9,984 bases of DNA from a virus (taxonomy: Duplodnaviria > Heunggongvirae > Uroviricota > Caudoviricetes): IMG/VR virus record IMGVR_UViG_3300014515_000023. One strand, written 5' to 3'. This document shows, piece after piece, positions 181 through 6,386 of this stretch. A program made the translations under genes and the position numbers. The notes below the pieces were generated by a model. It ran no database searches. It worked only from the letters and a program-made list of their open reading frames with translations, and was not told where the DNA came from. The stretch's first letter is position 1; each line of letters starts with the position of its first letter.

Positions 181-795
181 ATGCAGAATTTATCTCAACA
201 GTTGTTAGAAGCATATGACAAGGAGTGCCGCAAAGAGCTTTCGATCGCGTTAGCACAGGCTTATCTTCATTCGCATATGAAGGCAAAAGAGTTTGGTTCT
301 TTTTGGGCTCAAGCACAGTCATATTTGCGCTGGTTTTATGCCGATGCATTGCTTGAGAATGCGGCTAAGCGTGTGGGGCTGGATTTTGAAGTCGGTAGCA
401 ATGCTGCTAAAAATTGTAAACACATTGCGATTCACTCGAACAACTGGAAAATGACGGCACATCATTTATCGGGTAATGCGCCACTTCCTAAGCAGGCATT
501 GTATAGAGCTGTTTACGCTAATCAAAATTATGAATTGAATTTTGGGGATGAAAATGCCGACTCCCTGGATGGGAGAGCGTCTGGTGGACATGTTTATATG
601 TTACATGATGGCAGTAATCAGCACTTGTCCAAACTGAATTTAACTGTTCCTTCTTCGGATAATTACGGGATTCTTTATACTGAGTCTTTACCAATTATGA
701 CGATGGTAGAAGTTGAAGCAGAAAATGTGGATTCTGAGATTGAAGATAAAATCAAGATTCTTACCGAACAAATAATTAAATCACAGCAATCATGA
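181..795 (+). CDS. Hypothetical protein, 204 aa, first gene of the cassette; no domain recognised
   Basis: Clean ORF with an RBS and an upstream promoter-like site. Its stop TGA (793-795) overlaps the ATG (792-794) of the next gene, which suggests translational coupling. AT-richer than the flanking phage genes by eye. Acidic C-terminal tail. I recognise no catalytic motif. Confidence 0.75.
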   Translation: MQNLSQQLLEAYDKECRKELSIALAQAYLHSHMKAKEFGSFWAQAQSYLRWFYADALLENAAKRVGLDFEVGSNAAKNCKHIAIHSNNWKMTAHHLSGNAPLPKQALYRAVYANQNYELNFGDENADSLDGRASGGHVYMLHDGSNQHLSKLNLTVPSSDNYGILYTESLPIMTMVEVEAENVDSEIEDKIKILTEQIIKSQQS

Positions 796-1937
796 GCATG
801 AATATCGCACAAACACCATTTACTGATAAATCGTTTAATCCTCGTCGCCTTGAGGAGGCAAGAGAGGCAAAAGGGTTGACGATGGCTGAACTTGCCAGAG
901 TGCTCAATATTTCAAGACAAGCTATTTCGTCATTTGAGAAGGGGTTGAAGTCTCCCTCTGCTGATACACTTTCTGCAATAGCCAAGGTGTTAGGATTTCC
1001 AGAACGATTTTTCTTAGCCTCCAGTGCTTCTCCATCTCTGGAGGGGGCGATTCATTTTAGAAGTCGTTCAACTGCGACCAAAAAGGCTCGAGTTACAGGG
1101 AAAACACGTGGGCGTTGGGCGGCATTAATATTGGATGAATGTCTAAAATATGCTCAATTACCAGATGTGGTTCTGCCTGAATTCGATATTATTGATTTTG
1201 AGGTTCTGTCTCTATCTGATATTGAGGATATGTCCACCCAATTAAGGCGTTTTTGGGGGTTAGGTGATGGTCCAATACTCAATTTAACTAGACTTGTTGA
1301 AAATAAAGGAATCGTGGTTTCTCATTTACCTTCTGGTGAGAAAGTTGATGCCTTTTCGTTCTGGCATAATGGGCGGCCTTTAATTATGTTAGATAGCTCG
1401 AAGACGGCTGTTCGCATGCGATTTAGTCTTGCTCATGAACTTGGCCATTTAATTATGCATAGGGCAGTGGAGGATGACTACCTGAATGATAAAGAATTAT
1501 TCGACCTAGTGGAGTTGCAGGCCGATTATTTTGCCTCCAGCTTTTTAATGCCAGCCACGACTTTCGGGCGTGAATTTTATAGTCCAAATTTATCAGCGTT
1601 AGAACGATTAAAACTACGTTGGATTACATCTATCGGTAGTATTGCCATGAGGAGTCATAGCCTTAAGTTAATTAGCGATAATCAGAAAAGCTATATATTT
1701 AAGCAATTAGCGCCATTCCATCGTAGGGAGCCGTTAGATGATGCAATCCCAAAAGAAGAGCCTGAGTTACTTAATAAGTTACTTTTACTTCTTGATAAGC
1801 ATTCAATCATAAAGGTAACTGAGTTAACTGATATCTTTGCTCTTCCTTTAAATGAGTTATCTGCAATTACACGATTTAAAGAATCAGATATGATTCATTC
1901 TGACAATGTTATTTCATTTACCATAAAACAAAAATAA
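792..1937 (+). CDS. Fused XRE-family HTH and ImmA/IrrE-type (COG2856, peptidase M78-like) zinc metallopeptidase, 381 aa
   Basis: N-terminal segment (residues about 20-75, GLTMAELARVLNISRQAISSFEKG) matches the XRE/Cro-C1 helix-turn-helix pattern. HEXXH zinc motif HELGH at residues 215-219 (nt 1434-1448) sits in the context SLAHELGHLIMH typical of ImmA/IrrE peptidases. A C-terminal extension of about 150 aa has unknown function. Followed by a terminator. Confidence 0.85.
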   Translation: MSMNIAQTPFTDKSFNPRRLEEAREAKGLTMAELARVLNISRQAISSFEKGLKSPSADTLSAIAKVLGFPERFFLASSASPSLEGAIHFRSRSTATKKARVTGKTRGRWAALILDECLKYAQLPDVVLPEFDIIDFEVLSLSDIEDMSTQLRRFWGLGDGPILNLTRLVENKGIVVSHLPSGEKVDAFSFWHNGRPLIMLDSSKTAVRMRFSLAHELGHLIMHRAVEDDYLNDKELFDLVELQADYFASSFLMPATTFGREFYSPNLSALERLKLRWITSIGSIAMRSHSLKLISDNQKSYIFKQLAPFHRREPLDDAIPKEEPELLNKLLLLLDKHSIIKVTELTDIFALPLNELSAITRFKESDMIHSDNVISFTIKQK

Positions 1938-3379: not shown

Positions 3380-3745
3380 ATGACTGAACGCATAGAATTT
3401 GTTTTGCCTTACCCGCCAACGGTGAACACTTACTGGCGACGTCGTGGCAGCACATATTTTGTATCAAAAGTCGGTGAGCGTTATCGCCGTGATGTGGCGC
3501 TTATTGTTCGCCAGCAGCAACTGAAATTAAACCTGTCCGGAAGGCCGGCAATAGAAATTATTGCAGAGCCACCGGATAAGCGCCGTCGTGACCTGGACAA
3601 TATCCTGAAGGCACCACTGGATGTACTGACGCATGCGGGGCTGCTCATAGACGACGAGCAGTTTGATGAAATTAATATTGTGCGCGGTCAGCTTGTTCCT
3701 GGTGGGCGGTTGGGGATAAAAATCACAGAACTGGAGTACGCATGA
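3380..3745 (+). CDS. rusA: RusA-family Holliday junction resolvase, 121 aa
   Basis: Size and motifs match E. coli RusA as recalled: LPYPPTVNTYWRRRG near the N-terminus, the catalytic-region RRRDLDNILKAPLDVL, and GGRLGIKITE near the C-terminus. Stop overlaps the next gene's start (ATGA at 3742-3745). Confidence 0.9.
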   Translation: MTERIEFVLPYPPTVNTYWRRRGSTYFVSKVGERYRRDVALIVRQQQLKLNLSGRPAIEIIAEPPDKRRRDLDNILKAPLDVLTHAGLLIDDEQFDEINIVRGQLVPGGRLGIKITELEYA

Positions 3746-4431
3746 ATAACCAGTATTTACAGTTTGTTCGTGAGCAACTCATGATTGCCACCGCCGATTT
3801 GAGTGGATCAACAAAAGGGCAGCTTGAGGCCTGGCAGGAGAATGCCATGTTTGATACAGGGCGTTACAGGCGTAAAAAAATCCGGTACCGCGATGAAGTG
3901 ACTGGAAAAATGATAACGCGGGATAATCCACCAATCCCGGGAAAGCAATCGCTGGCGAAGGGGGTGTCAATTCCTCTCGTCAGTCCGGTTGAGTTTTCGA
4001 CATCATCGTGGCGGCGGGCTGTTCTGTCTCTTGAAGAACATCATAAAGCCTGGTTGTTGTGGTGTTACAGCGGGAGTATTTGTTGGGAATATCAGATCGC
4101 GATAACGCAGTGGGTGTGGAATGAATTTAAAACCCGGTACGGCACCAGAAAAATTGCAGGGAAAACGCAGGAGCGCGTGAAGAAGTTGATCTGGCTGGCG
4201 GCACAGGATGTCAGAGGATGGATTACCGGGTGTGAGGTCTACCAGAGACAGGAGCTTGCCAGACTGTGTGGAGTTAAGCCTGATAACTGGAGCCATAATT
4301 ATGCGAACTACTGGCGTGAGATGTGCGATATTTTTAAGAGTCTCGATAGAGAATCTGTGATTTGCACCGTGAAAATAAGAGCGCAACAAAAAGCGACTTT
4401 TTCACGACGAGATATTGCAAAAGTCAATTAA
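3742..4431 (+). CDS. Putative late-gene antiterminator Q (phage 82/Qin quuQ-like class), 229 aa
   Basis: Position is canonical: immediately after rusA and immediately before a promoter-like region plus a short-transcript terminator. Translationally coupled to rusA. The family assignment is by synteny and recollection, not by a motif I can verify. Confidence 0.55.
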   Translation: MNNQYLQFVREQLMIATADLSGSTKGQLEAWQENAMFDTGRYRRKKIRYRDEVTGKMITRDNPPIPGKQSLAKGVSIPLVSPVEFSTSSWRRAVLSLEEHHKAWLLWCYSGSICWEYQIAITQWVWNEFKTRYGTRKIAGKTQERVKKLIWLAAQDVRGWITGCEVYQRQELARLCGVKPDNWSHNYANYWREMCDIFKSLDRESVICTVKIRAQQKATFSRRDIAKVN

Positions 4432-4452
4432 ATAGCGTACGTTTCGTATAAA
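4415..4452 (+). promoter_or_regulatory. Candidate late promoter (PR'-like) / Q-utilisation region
   Basis: TTGCAA at 4415-4420 and -10-like TATAAA at 4447-4452 lie directly downstream of the Q stop and about 50-70 nt upstream of a strong terminator, analogous to lambda PR'-tR'. The spacing is non-ideal, so this is tentative. Confidence 0.3.
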
Positions 4453-4492
4453 TCTGATATTTTGCCGATTTTGTACGCGATGGCAAAGTAAG

Positions 4493-4523
4493 AAAAAAAA
4501 CTGCCGTCAGGCGGTTTTTTTTT
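4493..4523 (+). terminator. Intrinsic terminator (tR'-like), potentially bidirectional
   Basis: A8 (4493-4500), stem CTGCC (4501-4505), loop GTCA, stem GGCGG (4510-4514), T9 (4515-4523). Confidence 0.65.
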
Positions 4524-4645
4524 ATGCCCAAAATCGCGTCAGTACAGTAAACACGCTGGTGGTTGCGAATACGGGTCTTTCAGCTTGCTGGCTTTTTCGA
4601 CAAGAGTTATTGGTATGTCACGTTAACCGGAAAAAGGAAAAAGAC

Positions 4646-4843
4646 ATGCTAAAACAGCAGGATATGACAGAAACCGCCAGAGTGGTGTTTAATGAATTAA
4701 GCGTTACCGAACCGGCGACAGTCGGGGAGATAGCGCAGAATACTTACCTTTCACGCGAACGCTGCCAGTTAATACTGACCCAGCTGGTTATGGCGGGGGG
4801 GGCAGACTATCAGTTCGGTTGTTACAGACGCCTTCAGTCCTGA
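4646..4843 (+). CDS. Small hypothetical protein, about 65 aa, possible HTH/winged-helix DNA-binding protein
   Basis: ATG at 4646 preceded by AAGGAAAAAG RBS. This is the in-frame internal start of track ORF 4559..4843. The segment TVGEIAQNTYLSRERCQLILTQL resembles a helix-turn-helix. Sits between tR' and the methyltransferase. Confidence 0.45.
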   Translation: MLKQQDMTETARVVFNELSVTEPATVGEIAQNTYLSRERCQLILTQLVMAGGADYQFGCYRRLQS

Positions 4844-4993
4844 AGGCTTTTTTATTTGTGGTAAATGGGCGGCTGGTGGGTGTTAGGGGCACCCACCAGC
4901 CATCTGCTCATGCGTTGGGTTCACAAGCAAACCTCAGGCCCACTGCTTTGCGCAAAAGCAGAATGAGCCTATCAGAGACAGGCTTAATGATCC

Positions 4994-6043
4994 ATGCTTA
5001 ATACTGTAAAAATATCCAGTTGTGAGTTAATCAACGCCGACTGCCTGGAATTTATCCGGTCGTTACCCGAAAATTCTGTTGACCTGATAGTCACGGACCC
5101 GCCGTACTTTAAAGTGAAGCCTGAGGGCTGGGATAACCAGTGGAAGGGCGACGATGATTACCTGAAGTGGCTGGACCAGTGTCTGGCGCAGTTCTGGCGG
5201 GTGCTGAAACCTGTCGGAAGTCTTTACCTGTTCTGTGGTCATCGCCTGGCATCTGATATCGAAATCATGATGCGTGAACGCTTCAGTGTGCTGAACCATA
5301 TTATCTGGGCGAAGCCGTCCGGACGCTGGAACGGATGCAACAAGGAAAGCCTGCGGGCGTATTTCCCCGCCACAGAGCGCATTCTGTTCGCGGAACATTA
5401 TCAGGGGCCGTATCGTCCGAAAGATGCCGGGTATGCGGCGAAGGGCAGTGCACTGAAACAGCATGTGATGGCCCCGCTGATTTCTTACTTTCGTGATGCG
5501 CGCGCTGCCCTGGGGATAACGGCAAAACAGATTGCAGATGCCACAGGAAAGAAAAACATGGTGTCGCACTGGTTCAGTGCCAGTCAGTGGCAGCTACCGA
5601 ACGAAAGCGATTATCTGAAATTACAGTCGCTGTTTGCCCGGGTGGCAGAAGAGAAACATCAGCGCGGTGAACTGGAAAAGCCCCACCACCAGCTGGTGGA
5701 TACGTATACGTCACTGAACCGGCAGTATGTGGAGCTGCAGAGTGAATATAAGCATCTGCGGCGGTATTTTGGTGTGACGGCGCAGGTGCCGTACACGGAT
5801 GTGTGGACACATAAACCGGTGCAGTTCTATCCCGGGAAACATCCGTGCGAAAAACCGGCAGAAATGCTGCAGCAGATAATCAGCGCAAGCAGTCGTCCGG
5901 GTGACCTGGTTGCAGATTTTTTTATGGGCTCAGGTTCAACGGTAAAAGCGGCACTGGCGCTTGGGCGTCGTGCGATTGGCGTTGAACTGGAGACCGGACG
6001 TTTTGAGCAGACAGTCAGGGAAGTTCAGGATTTAATCGTTTGA
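4994..6043 (+). CDS. DNA N6-adenine or N4-cytosine methyltransferase, beta-class motif order, apparently orphan, 349 aa
   Basis: Motif IV DPPY at residues 35-38 (nt 5096-5107) in the context SVDLIVTDPPYF. SAM-binding motif I FxGxG (FFMGSGST) at residues 309-316 (nt 5918-5941). Motif IV before motif I is the beta-class order. No restriction-endonuclease-like ORF is adjacent. Confidence 0.9.
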   Translation: MLNTVKISSCELINADCLEFIRSLPENSVDLIVTDPPYFKVKPEGWDNQWKGDDDYLKWLDQCLAQFWRVLKPVGSLYLFCGHRLASDIEIMMRERFSVLNHIIWAKPSGRWNGCNKESLRAYFPATERILFAEHYQGPYRPKDAGYAAKGSALKQHVMAPLISYFRDARAALGITAKQIADATGKKNMVSHWFSASQWQLPNESDYLKLQSLFARVAEEKHQRGELEKPHHQLVDTYTSLNRQYVELQSEYKHLRRYFGVTAQVPYTDVWTHKPVQFYPGKHPCEKPAEMLQQIISASSRPGDLVADFFMGSGSTVKAALALGRRAIGVELETGRFEQTVREVQDLIV

Positions 6044-6092
6044 AACGGATGAGATTGCAGAATTAATTACGCACCATTATTATTCTGCTCCC

Positions 6093-6168
6093 GGCCCTTT
6101 AGCTCAGTGGTGAGAGCGAGCGACTCATAATCGCCAGGTCGCTGGTTCAAATCCAGCAAGGGCCACCA
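6093..6168 (+). tRNA. ileZ: tRNA-Ile2-like, anticodon CAU (lysidine type), 76 nt with encoded CCA
   Basis: Manual cloverleaf: acceptor GGCCCTT/AAGGGCC, D-arm GCTC-AGTGGTGA-GAGC, anticodon loop CTCATAA, T-loop TTCAAAT, then A-CCA. Closely resembles E. coli ileX as I recall it. A Met identity cannot be excluded from sequence alone. Confidence 0.85.
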
Positions 6169-6175
6169 TCACATA

Positions 6176-6252
6176 CCGCCATTAGCTCATCAGGAAAGAG
6201 CGCCAGCTTTCGAAGCTGGTTGCGCGGAGTTCGGGTCCCCGAAGGCGGTCCA
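6176..6252 (+). tRNA. tRNA-Arg, anticodon UCG, with non-canonical features
   Basis: Anticodon stem CCAGC/GCTGG is perfect with loop TTTCGAA (anticodon TCG). D-arm GCTC...GAGC. The acceptor stem has one A-A mismatch. The T stem has one A-C mismatch. The T-loop TTCGGGT has G at the usually invariant A58 position. Discriminator T, then CCA. Confidence 0.6.
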
Positions 6253-6265
6253 TTATCTGTATCCT

Positions 6266-6342
6266 GCGTTGTTAGCTCAGCCGGACAGAGCAATTGCCTT
6301 CTAAGCAATCGGTCACTGGTTCGAATCCAGTACAACGCGCCA
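6266..6342 (+). tRNA. tRNA-Arg, anticodon UCU, 77 nt with encoded CCA
   Basis: Perfect acceptor GCGTTGT/ACAACGC, anticodon loop CTTCTAA, T-loop TTCGAAT, discriminator G, CCA. Architecture is like E. coli argU. Confidence 0.85.
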
Positions 6343-6386
6343 CACTTATTTTCCCTGGCTCGCTTTTGCGGGCTTTTTTTAAATGT

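What the first reader, a model, noticed from the sequence alone, without database searches (positions are those of the whole stretch)
6176..6252. Phage tRNA-Arg(UCG) with non-canonical acceptor and T-arm features
Compared with the two flanking, well-formed tRNAs, this one has an A-A mismatch in the acceptor stem, an A-C mismatch in the T stem, and G at the usually invariant A58 position of the T-loop. It may still be functional (phage tRNAs are often divergent), or it may be a degenerating copy or have a non-canonical role. All three tRNAs plausibly supply codons rare in the host for late phage genes.
Basis: seen in the sequence. Interest (0 to 1): 0.35.

Follow-up and report, generated by a model that had tools for sequence, protein, structure and literature searches.

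The report
Damaged copy of prophage tRNA-Arg argN
This is the long-annotated argN gene (tRNA-Arg, anticodon UCG) of the three-tRNA module carried by lambda-like E. coli prophages, here in a common variant whose three structure-breaking mutations probably weaken or kill it, so it is ordinary rather than a new kind of RNA.

Summary
Window 6176-6252 encodes a 77-nt tRNA-Arg(UCG) with an A6·A67 acceptor mismatch, an A52·C62 T-stem mismatch and G58. It is argN, the middle gene of the ileZ-argN-argO module of lambdoid/Stx prophages, downstream of Q and a DNA methylase.

The odd features are not general phage-tRNA divergence. Reference argN in Stx2 phages is a flawless cloverleaf with A58. The window differs from it at 8 of 77 nt, while ileZ and argO are identical (p=1e-4). 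All 31 other distinct alleles of the scaffold keep A-U at 6-67 and G-C at 52-62. Rfam score falls from 54-58 bits to 43, and predicted cloverleaf stability falls by 8-11 kcal/mol.

The exact allele is in 560 of 5,426 complete E. coli genomes, always labelled tRNA-Arg. It is absent from all 261 phage records that carry argN.

Best reading: a derived, weakened or dead allele carried in chromosomal prophages. Function cannot be settled by computation, and argN shows no faster change than its neighbours within this allele family (p=1.0).

Side finding: the same post-Q slot holds one shared tRNA scaffold with different anticodon arms, including unannotated 74-nt elements with a hypervariable 6-nt loop that lacks U33.

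The parts
6176..6252 (+). argN, tRNA-Arg(UCG), 77 nt: the finding itself, in a derived allele
   Evidence: ARAGORN. Rfam 42.9 bits. PGAP labels the identical copy tRNA-Arg with no pseudogene flag. It is 69/77 identical to the gene annotated argN in AP012536.
6181..6181 (+). A6, unpaired partner of A67 (6243). The derived change is U67 to A.
   Evidence: Sequence. All 31 other distinct scaffold alleles have A-U at this pair, and all 8 unpaired cells belong to the window family.
6228..6228 (+). A52 opposite C62 (6238). The derived change is G52 to A.
   Evidence: Sequence. All 31 other alleles have G-C. Relatives that do carry A52 pair it with U62 (CGGAG/CTCCG in L171 and L173).
6234..6234 (+). 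G58 in the T loop TTCGGGT. The derived change is A58 to G.
   Evidence: Sequence. A58 is present in the 933W-type and common alleles. G58 also occurs alone in a few otherwise intact alleles.
6210..6212 (+). Anticodon TCG in an intact 7-nt loop (U33 and A37 present). The window has U32 where most alleles have C32.
   Evidence: C32 in 98 and T32 in 51 of 149 family copies.
6093..6168 (+). ileZ, CAU tRNA annotated tRNA-Ile, upstream member of the module, intact
   Evidence: Rfam 72.5 bits. PGAP tRNA-Ile. One allele accounts for 103 of 116 copies.
6266..6342 (+). argO, tRNA-Arg(UCU), downstream member of the module, intact
   Evidence: Rfam 70.1 bits. 69 of 89 copies are flawless, and a double compensatory change CACTGG/CCAGT to CAGTGG/CCACT is present.
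6357..6384 (+). Terminator-like hairpin plus T-run just after argO
   Evidence: Consensus scan. Its function is inferred.
3742..4431 (+). Antiterminator Q gene. It places the tRNA module in the late operon.
   Evidence: PGAP annotation of the colinear AR_0013 region.
4994..6043 (+). N6/N4 DNA methyltransferase gene immediately upstream of the module
   Evidence: Pfam PF01555, 152 bits. The same arrangement occurs in Stx2 phages.

Best explanation
The feature is argN, the tRNA-Arg(UCG) gene in the middle of the ileZ-argN-argO module that lambdoid (Stx-type) prophages of E. coli carry in their late region, downstream of Q. In its intact form it is an ordinary elongator tRNA. The following steps are inferred from the anatomy and from standard E. 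coli tRNA biology. It is transcribed with the late operon. It is released by RNase P and 3' trimming, with CCA encoded in the gene. It is charged by ArgRS, since A20, C35 and G36 are present. It reads CGA and CGG, an anticodon E. coli itself lacks. The window carries a derived allele in which three substitutions hit structure: U67A breaks acceptor pair 6-67, G52A breaks T-stem pair 52-62, and A58G removes the partner of the conserved T54-A58 T-loop pair. The most likely consequence is a poorly folding, weakly active or inactive tRNA. It would be tolerated because argN is dispensable to a resident prophage, many genomes hold several copies of the module, and host tRNAs already read CGN codons. 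The allele then persists by hitch-hiking with the intact ileZ and argO in chromosomal prophages. The identity, the derived state and the structural damage are shown here. Loss of function is inferred.
For: Identity: position, anticodon and 69/77 identity to annotated argN. An identical copy is annotated tRNA-Arg.

Derived and damaging: reference phage argN is fully paired with A58, and the window differs at 8/77 nt against 0/153 in ileZ plus argO (Fisher p=1.2e-4). The cloverleaf is supported across 39 distinct scaffold alleles: 96.2% of cells are paired against 29-53% when slid, and 4 pairs change on both sides. Every unpaired cell at 6-67 and 52-62 belongs to the window family.

Scores: canonical argN gets 54-58.4 bits and the window family 42.9-43.4. 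Cloverleaf energy is -20.0 against -28.3 to -31.3 kcal/mol, and a competing fold is 9 kcal/mol better, against 1.1-5.3 for the others.

Weaker constraint on argN overall: pi is 0.189 over all loci and 0.068 over full-length alleles, against 0.010 for ileZ and 0.036 for argO, with spacers at 0.15-0.37. Only 29 of 84 loci with ileZ and argO have a flawless argN.

Distribution: the exact allele is in 560/5,426 genomes and its family in 988. None of the 261 phage records with argN carries it, the best being 90.9% identical, and 4 of 5 phage copies checked are flawless. Two host prophages inspected are degraded: frameshifted Rz plus IS and intron insertions in one, two IS1203 copies and an inverted lysis cassette in the other.

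Further damage without repair inside the family: CCA to TCA in 22/149 copies and G10T in 4/149, and G50A.
Against: Both tRNA finders and PGAP still call it a tRNA, and 42.9 bits is well above the gathering score of 29. The anticodon loop, A20, C35, G36, G18, G19, G53, T54, T55, C56, C61 and the CCA end are all intact.

Within 149 family loci, argN does not change faster than ileZ plus argO (6/54 against 18/153, p=1.0). There is therefore no direct sign of neutral drift specific to argN after the damage, and the family may simply be young.

An A.C mismatch at the neighbouring pair 51-63 persists across seven genera and in the Lys(UUU) relatives, so one A.C in this T stem is not lethal for whatever those elements do. 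G58 also occurs in otherwise intact alleles scoring 54 bits.

Absence from phage records is confounded by their bias towards Stx phages. No expression or charging data could be found.
Confidence: 0.62

Rival explanations
1. It is a functional, merely divergent tRNA-Arg(UCG). The three changes are tolerated, perhaps with reduced efficiency, and the gene still supplies CGA/CGG decoding during late gene expression.
For: It scores above threshold in every detector and is annotated as a tRNA. The Arg identity positions and the anticodon loop are intact. The allele is abundant and identical in 560 genomes. It shows no excess change relative to its neighbours within the family. CGG is enriched 1.4- to 2.2-fold in the window's ORFs and in a prophage carrying the same module. 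A.C mismatches persist elsewhere in this scaffold.
Against: All three changes are derived and hit positions kept by all 31 other alleles. The allele loses 13 bits and 8-11 kcal/mol. No compensating change appears in 149 copies, while CCA to TCA and G10T do arise. It is absent from 261 phage records. From general knowledge rather than a test here, A58 is near-invariant in bacterial elongator tRNAs, and combined stem and T-loop mutations are usually strongly deleterious in tRNA mutational scans.
Confidence: 0.28
2. It has been kept for a role other than decoding. Examples are an RNase P or RNase E punctuation element needed to release ileZ and argO from the shared transcript, or a decoy or competitor for a tRNA-targeting nuclease.
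For: The slot always holds a tRNA-shaped element of about 74-81 nt, even when it cannot decode. Examples are the yahM-type occupants flanked by intact ileZ and argO and the 6-nt-loop elements. Sister arrays carry Lys(UUU) and Thr(UGU), which are known nuclease targets.
Against: In the window allele the damage lies in the acceptor and T arms, the part RNase P recognises, so no sub-domain is consistently protected. Apart from C32U, the changes are outside the anticodon loop. Anticodon nucleases act on that loop, and it is where phage tRNAs are reported to carry mutations predicted to evade them (PMC10264068). The host has no UCG tRNA to mimic (established knowledge). Nothing here tests processing.
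Confidence: 0.07
3. It is an artefact: a chance tRNA-like sequence or a sequencing error.
For: None.
Against: The identical 77-mer is found in 560 independent complete genomes, 109 viral contigs and 47 metagenome contigs.
Confidence: 0

Closest known systems
argN of Stx2-converting phages (for example AP012536, where ileZ, argN and argO are annotated; the 933W/Sakai-type module)
   Same: It has the same slot between ileZ and argO, 7-nt and 13-nt spacers of similar form, the same UCG anticodon, the same scaffold and U73-CCA end, and 69/77 identical bases.
   Different: The window has U67A, G52A and A58G, plus five changes at freely varying positions (17, 20a, 32, 44, 60). It has no stx operon downstream, where the phage has stxAB between argO and STnc100.
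Chromosomal E. coli tRNA-Arg isoacceptors (anticodons ICG, CCG, UCU, CCU; established knowledge)
   Same: It shares the Arg identity positions A20 and C35 and has a class I cloverleaf of 77 nt.
   Different: E. coli has no UCG isoacceptor. The scaffold is unrelated, and the discriminator is U73 rather than A or G.
Phage tRNAs that counter tRNA-cleaving defences (T5 tRNA-Lys against PARIS, PMC11464382; phage tRNA-Thr(UGU) against P2 OLD, PMC12445682; the anticodon-loop escape hypothesis, PMC10264068)
   Same: It is an accessory tRNA carried by a phage in a variable cargo slot. Sister arrays in the same slot carry exactly Lys(UUU) and Thr(UGU).
   Different: No nuclease is known to make a UCG tRNA useful. 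The window allele's distinctive changes are in the acceptor and T arms, not at an anticodon-loop cleavage site. Nothing was tested functionally.
tRNA-like element in the yahL-yahM gap of the E. coli core genome, and the 74-nt 'tRNA-???' elements of other Enterobacteriaceae prophages
   Same: They have the same acceptor stem, D arm, T arm and CCA end.
   Different: Those have a different or U33-less anticodon arm and score below the Rfam tRNA threshold. The window gene keeps a normal 7-nt UCG loop.

Membership tests
Bacterial elongator tRNA (Rfam RF00005) | Covariance-model score at or above the curated gathering score | tested here: met
   42.9 bits against 29. This is 13 bits below canonical argN.
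Bacterial elongator tRNA (Rfam RF00005) | Four stems of 7, 4, 5 and 5 standard pairs | tested here: inconclusive
   19 of 21 pairs are standard. 6-67 is A.A and 52-62 is A.C.
Bacterial elongator tRNA (Rfam RF00005) | Conserved tertiary bases U8, A14, G18, G19, U33, G53, T54, T55, C56, A58, C61 | tested here: not met
   Ten of eleven are present. A58 is replaced by G.
Bacterial elongator tRNA (Rfam RF00005) | 7-nt anticodon loop with U33 and a purine at 37; encoded 3' CCA | tested here: met
   The loop is TTTCGAA and CCA lies at 6250-6252.
Bacterial elongator tRNA (Rfam RF00005) | Processed to mature size and aminoacylated in vivo | not testable with these tools
   No expression or charging data were found in the literature searches.
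argN of the ileZ-argN-argO prophage module | Middle gene between a CAU tRNA-Ile and tRNA-Arg(UCU), downstream of Q in a lambdoid late region | tested here: met
argN of the ileZ-argN-argO prophage module | Anticodon UCG and sequence homology to annotated argN | tested here: met
   69/77 identical to argN of AP012536. It aligns without gaps with 33 other alleles.
Substrate of E. coli ArgRS | Identity elements A20 and C35, with G36 or U36 (established knowledge) | tested here: met
   The D loop ATCAGGAAA places A at position 20, and the anticodon is U34 C35 G36. Actual charging is not testable here.
tRNA pseudogene | Derived loss of pairs or bases that orthologues conserve | tested here: met
tRNA pseudogene | Evolves faster than neighbouring functional tRNAs | tested here: inconclusive
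   Between families the answer is yes: 8/77 against 0/153, and pi of 0.068-0.189 against 0.010 and 0.036. Within the window family it is no: 6/54 against 18/153, p=1.0.
tRNA pseudogene | Not expressed, not processed or not charged | not testable with these tools
   This needs tRNA-seq or Northern blots.
Anti-nuclease phage tRNA | Same anticodon as a host tRNA that a defence nuclease cleaves, with changes at or near the cleavage site | tested here: not met
   The host has no UCG tRNA (established knowledge). The distinctive changes lie outside the anticodon loop except C32U.

The most novel reading that the evidence does not exclude
The tRNA slot just downstream of Q in lambdoid prophages of Enterobacteriaceae is an arms-race cassette. 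One conserved tRNA scaffold, with a shared acceptor stem, D arm, T arm and CCA end, carries interchangeable anticodon arms. These include Arg-UCG, Arg-UCU, Lys-UUU with C33, Leu, Val, and a 74-nt form whose 6-nt loop lacks U33 and is hypervariable between species. On this reading the cargo is selected to replace or shield tRNAs attacked by host or rival-phage nucleases, and the window's argN is a retired cassette left to decay once that pressure lapsed.
Probability: 0.15. Interest if true: 0.65.

Novelty: already known. Interest (0 to 1): 0.2.

Why it matters
For the finding itself, the value is mainly in annotation. A tRNA-Arg labelled as an ordinary gene in at least 560 complete E. coli genomes, many of them O157:H7, is probably impaired. 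Counts of 'extra prophage tRNAs' used in codon-supply arguments for Stx phages and EHEC should therefore not assume every copy works.

It is also a clean natural example of uneven constraint within one three-gene tRNA module. ileZ and argO are held almost invariant while the middle gene varies or is replaced.

The broader pattern seen along the way could matter more if it is real. One scaffold carries swapped or hypervariable anticodon arms in the post-Q slot, next to Lys(UUU) and Thr(UGU), which are known nuclease targets. That would link lambdoid prophage tRNA cargo to tRNA-directed defence and counter-defence.

Tried and rejected
1. Unconstrained MFE folding as a test of an alternative cloverleaf was uninformative. 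The intact ileZ and argO also lack a cloverleaf MFE. I used the energy of the imposed cloverleaf instead.

2. I first read the 29 loci with nothing callable between ileZ and argO as independently wrecked argN. I rejected that reading. Their central segment aligns with a separate tRNA-like lineage that is also fixed upstream of yahM in the E. coli core genome. They are alternative occupants of the slot, not decay products of argN.

3. The within-family rate test gave p=0.19 at n=16. After enlarging to 149 loci it gave p=1.0. There is no support for argN-specific acceleration inside the family.

4. A count of 'distinct changes' in the non-family alleles was inflated by a few truncated or outlier sequences, so I did not use it.

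5. An off-by-one error in feature boundaries was found and corrected. The conclusions did not change.

6. Literature searches by gene name (ileZ, argN, argO) found nothing relevant in the held library. The 933W genome paper, which I recall as the first description, is not held. The gene names therefore rest on GenBank annotations.

7. CGA enrichment as a rationale for this tRNA was not found.

8. No sigma-70-like promoter on the + strand passed the scan between Q and the tRNAs. By eye, TTGCAG-17-TATTAT at 6055-6083 is a weak candidate only.

Full report
**What is there.** ARAGORN finds three adjacent tRNA genes on the + strand: a CAU tRNA at 6093-6168, tRNA-Arg(UCG) at 6176-6252 and tRNA-Arg(UCU) at 6266-6342. 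Rfam's tRNA model matches all three, at 72.5, 42.9 and 70.1 bits. In the middle gene it flags non-standard pairs in the acceptor and T stems.
- A6 (6181) lies opposite A67 (6243).
- A52 (6228) lies opposite C62 (6238).
- The T loop is TTCGGGT, with G58 at 6234.
- The anticodon loop (U33, UCG, A37), A20, G18, G19, G53, T54, T55, C56, C61 and the encoded CCA are all intact.

The model's optimal alignment retains both mismatches, so no alternative register removes them.

**Context.** The window is the late region of a lambdoid prophage of E. coli or a close relative. It contains DUF968, RusA, antiterminator Q (3742-4431), a DNA methyltransferase (4994-6043), the three tRNAs, two STnc100 sRNA copies, a SASA esterase and a P21-type holin. 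The 361-bp tRNA module is 100% identical to one in E. coli AR_0013, where PGAP labels the genes tRNA-Ile, tRNA-Arg and tRNA-Arg with no pseudogene flag. No complete genome in the collection matches the whole window; the best hit is 98.3% identical over 90% of it, so the prophage is mosaic. The module occurs in 3,061 of 5,426 complete E. coli genomes, up to 13 times per genome, and in 289 phage records, mostly Stx2-converting phages. Several of those records name the genes ileZ, argN and argO. The finding is therefore argN, a gene annotated in this module for many years. From memory it was first described with phage 933W, but I could not open that paper.

**The odd features are derived, not typical.** In Stx2 phage Stx2a_1447, argN has a fully paired acceptor (CCGCCAT/ATGGCGG), a fully paired T stem (CGGGG/CCCCG) and the T loop TTCGAGC with A58. 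The window differs from it at 8 of 77 positions, while ileZ and argO are identical between the two (0 of 153; Fisher p=1.2e-4).

I collected 63 full-length argN copies (34 alleles) from viral contigs by scanning for the ileZ 3' end. About 37 copies are flawless. Sixteen form the window's family and all share A6.A67, A52.C62 and G58.

A formal count on 39 distinct alleles of this scaffold, including Lys(UUU) and a Serratia Arg(UCU) relative, supports the cloverleaf. 96.2% of cells are paired, against 29-53% when the 3' partners are slid, and four pairs change on both sides. Every unpaired cell at 6-67 and 52-62 comes from the 8 window-family alleles. The other 31 alleles all have A-U and G-C at those pairs. 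Relatives that do carry A52 pair it with U62.

**Size of the damage.**
- Rfam score: canonical argN alleles get 54-58.4 bits and the window family 42.9-43.4.
- Stability: with the cloverleaf imposed, the window allele is 8-11 kcal/mol less stable (-20.0 against -28.3 to -31.3).
- Competing fold: a rival fold beats the window cloverleaf by 9 kcal/mol, against 1.1-5.3 for the other tRNAs. That fold uses G58 and A67 to pair UUCGG with CCGAA.

**Constraint on the three genes.** Across 89 loci, nucleotide diversity is 0.010 in the unselected part of ileZ and 0.036 in argO. It is 0.189 in argN, or 0.068 if only full-length alleles are used. Spacers are at 0.15-0.37. Both ileZ and argO contain true double compensatory changes. 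Among 84 loci that keep ileZ and argO, 29 have a flawless argN, 4 have one defect, 20 have two or more, and 31 have no full-length argN.

The last class needs one correction. Those occupants are not decayed argN. They align with a separate tRNA-like lineage (see 'Seen in passing').

**Where the allele lives.** The exact 77-mer is in 560 of 5,426 complete E. coli genomes, and its family is in 988, including many O157:H7 strains. None of the 261 phage records that carry an argN has it; the best is 90.9% identical. Four of five phage copies checked are flawless. If the phage records matched the chromosomal frequency of 13.8%, finding none in 266 copies would have P of about 8e-18. That figure is weakened by the dominance of Stx phages among the phage records. 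The two host prophages I inspected are visibly degraded. One has a frameshifted Rz, IS3/IS629 fragments and a group II intron. The other has two IS1203 copies and an inverted lysis cassette.

**What did not support decay.** I enlarged the family sample to 149 colinear loci by scanning viral and metagenome contigs for the family-specific 23-mer. The unselected 54 nt of argN show 6 distinct changes, against 18 in the 153 nt of ileZ plus argO (p=1.0). Within this family argN is therefore not changing faster than its neighbours. Further damaging changes do occur: CCA to TCA in 22 copies, G10T in 4 and G50A. No compensating change is seen. But argO is also damaged in a 14-copy sub-haplotype. Two further points weaken the case. 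An A.C mismatch at the neighbouring pair 51-63 persists across several genera, and G58 occurs in otherwise intact alleles.

**Codon supply.** A prophage carrying the identical module was compared with a 10,890-codon host sample. It is enriched for CGG (14.5 vs 6.8 per 1000, p=3e-8), AGG (4.7 vs 1.7) and AGA (6.6 vs 4.5). It is not enriched for CGA (4.7 vs 4.8) or AUA (7.3 vs 7.3). The window's own ORFs give CGG 9.8, AGG 5.5, AGA 7.4, AUA 12.1 and CGA 4.7 per 1000. An intact UCG tRNA could plausibly help with CGG. The CGA argument fails.

**Mechanism and verdict.** Intact argN most likely works as a normal late-expressed elongator tRNA for CGA and CGG. This is inferred from its anatomy, its position downstream of Q, and standard E. 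coli tRNA biology. The window copy is a derived allele with three hits on conserved structure. I judge it weakened or non-functional with confidence of about 0.6. It would be tolerated because the gene is dispensable and often redundant in the same genome, and it is carried along with the intact ileZ and argO. Retained function has a probability of about 0.3 and cannot be excluded without tRNA-seq or charging assays. A non-decoding role has little support. The gene family is already known, and the interest of the finding is low.

**Seen in passing.** A scan of species-representative genomes with the argN 5' scaffold found few true argN copies. Instead it found many 74-nt tRNA-like genes in Enterobacter, Buttiauxella, Dryocola, Cedecea, Pseudescherichia, Salmonella and other genera.
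- They have canonical acceptor, D and T arms and a CCA end.
- Their loop is 6 nt and fits C-NNN-R-N, that is, a normal anticodon loop minus U33.
- Among 20 species the loop has 13 different sequences and all 6 columns vary, while only about 14 of the other 68 positions vary.
- ARAGORN calls them 'tRNA-???', and Rfam does not reach threshold.
- They sit in arrays with Thr(UGU) and Gly(UCC). In L135 the array lies directly downstream of a Q gene.
- An 81-nt relative is fixed in the yahL-yahM gap of 5,169 of 5,426 E. coli genomes, with no RNA annotation.

E. coli and Shigella prophages also carry Lys(UUU) with C33, Thr(UGU) and Gly(UCC) in this slot. tRNA-Lys(UUU) is the target of PARIS and PrrC, and tRNA-Thr(UGU) is the preferred target of P2 OLD during P2-lambda interference, a defect that phage tRNA-Thr rescues (PMC11464382, PMC10264068, PMC12445682). 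I found no description of the 6-nt-loop elements in the searchable literature.

Noticed in passing
L128-L175 (for example L130:7700-7773 on the - strand, L135:1474-1547 +, L157:6780-6853 +): These are 74-nt tRNA-like genes on the argN scaffold, found in many Enterobacteriaceae genera. Their 6-nt loop fits C-NNN-R-N, a normal anticodon loop lacking U33. Among 20 species there are 13 loop sequences and all 6 columns vary, while the remaining 68 nt are almost invariant. ARAGORN calls them 'tRNA-???', and Rfam scores them below threshold. They sit in arrays of [Met(CAU)] - ??? - Thr(UGU) - Gly(UCC), directly downstream of Q in L135. No description was found in the literature search.
   Followed up: partly
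L182:4001-4081 (E. coli Sanji, yahL-yahM gap, overlapping the yahM start): An 81-nt tRNA-like element on the same scaffold is present in 5,169 of 5,426 complete E. coli genomes, identical in 4,822, and in other Escherichia species. It has no RNA annotation. The uncallable occupants of the ileZ-X-argO slot in 29 viral contigs (for example L003:1630-1729) are relatives of it rather than decayed argN.
   Followed up: partly
L146:1406-1479 (- strand), L159, L004:1623-1699, and 13 IMG/VR loci: The same post-ileZ slot can carry alternative cargo: tRNA-Lys(UUU) on the argN scaffold, followed by Thr(UGU) and Gly(UCC). Most of these Lys copies have C33 instead of the universal U33, plus an A51.C63 mismatch, and score 44.4 bits. 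Lys(UUU) and Thr(UGU) are the tRNAs attacked by PARIS/PrrC and by P2 OLD.
   Followed up: partly
window 6417-6607 and 6885-7094 (+): Two tandem copies of the sRNA family STnc100 (136 and 165 bits) lie between argO and the esterase gene, each ending in a terminator-like hairpin. In an Stx2 phage the stxAB operon sits between argO and its single STnc100 (L002: stxAB 3393-4633, STnc100 4708-4923). The window therefore has the stx slot empty. AgvB lies next to STnc100 in L037 and L056.
   Followed up: partly
IMG/VR loci (sequences listed): The argN slot shows other rearrangements. An argN 5' half is fused to an argO 3' half in 3 copies. One argN scaffold has its anticodon changed from TCG to TCT. 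One family has the acceptor 3' strand changed from GG to AA and scores below the Rfam threshold (L006). Some copies have T-loop indels in G runs.
   Followed up: no
149 window-family loci: Within prophages carrying the window's argN allele, argO is also damaged in a 14-copy sub-haplotype (C61A plus C67G), and ileZ has G1A in 4 copies. The whole module may be drifting in some of these prophages.
   Followed up: no
window 6093-6168: ileZ carries an A27.C43 mismatch in its anticodon stem that is fixed in 113 of 116 sampled copies. One variant has a double compensatory change at 31-39. The mismatch is a stable feature of a conserved gene, not damage.
   Followed up: yes
window 792-1937 (+): This ORF encodes an HTH plus Peptidase_M78 (ImmA/IrrE-like) protein. 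AR_0013, which has the identical tRNA module, carries a QueH gene at the corresponding place. This shows the mosaic make-up of the prophage.
   Followed up: no
window 6055-6083 (+): By eye, TTGCAG-17 nt-TATTAT ends 9 nt before the mature 5' end of ileZ and is followed by a G+C-rich stretch. It could be a weak dedicated promoter for the tRNA module. It falls below the promoter scan's threshold.
   Followed up: no
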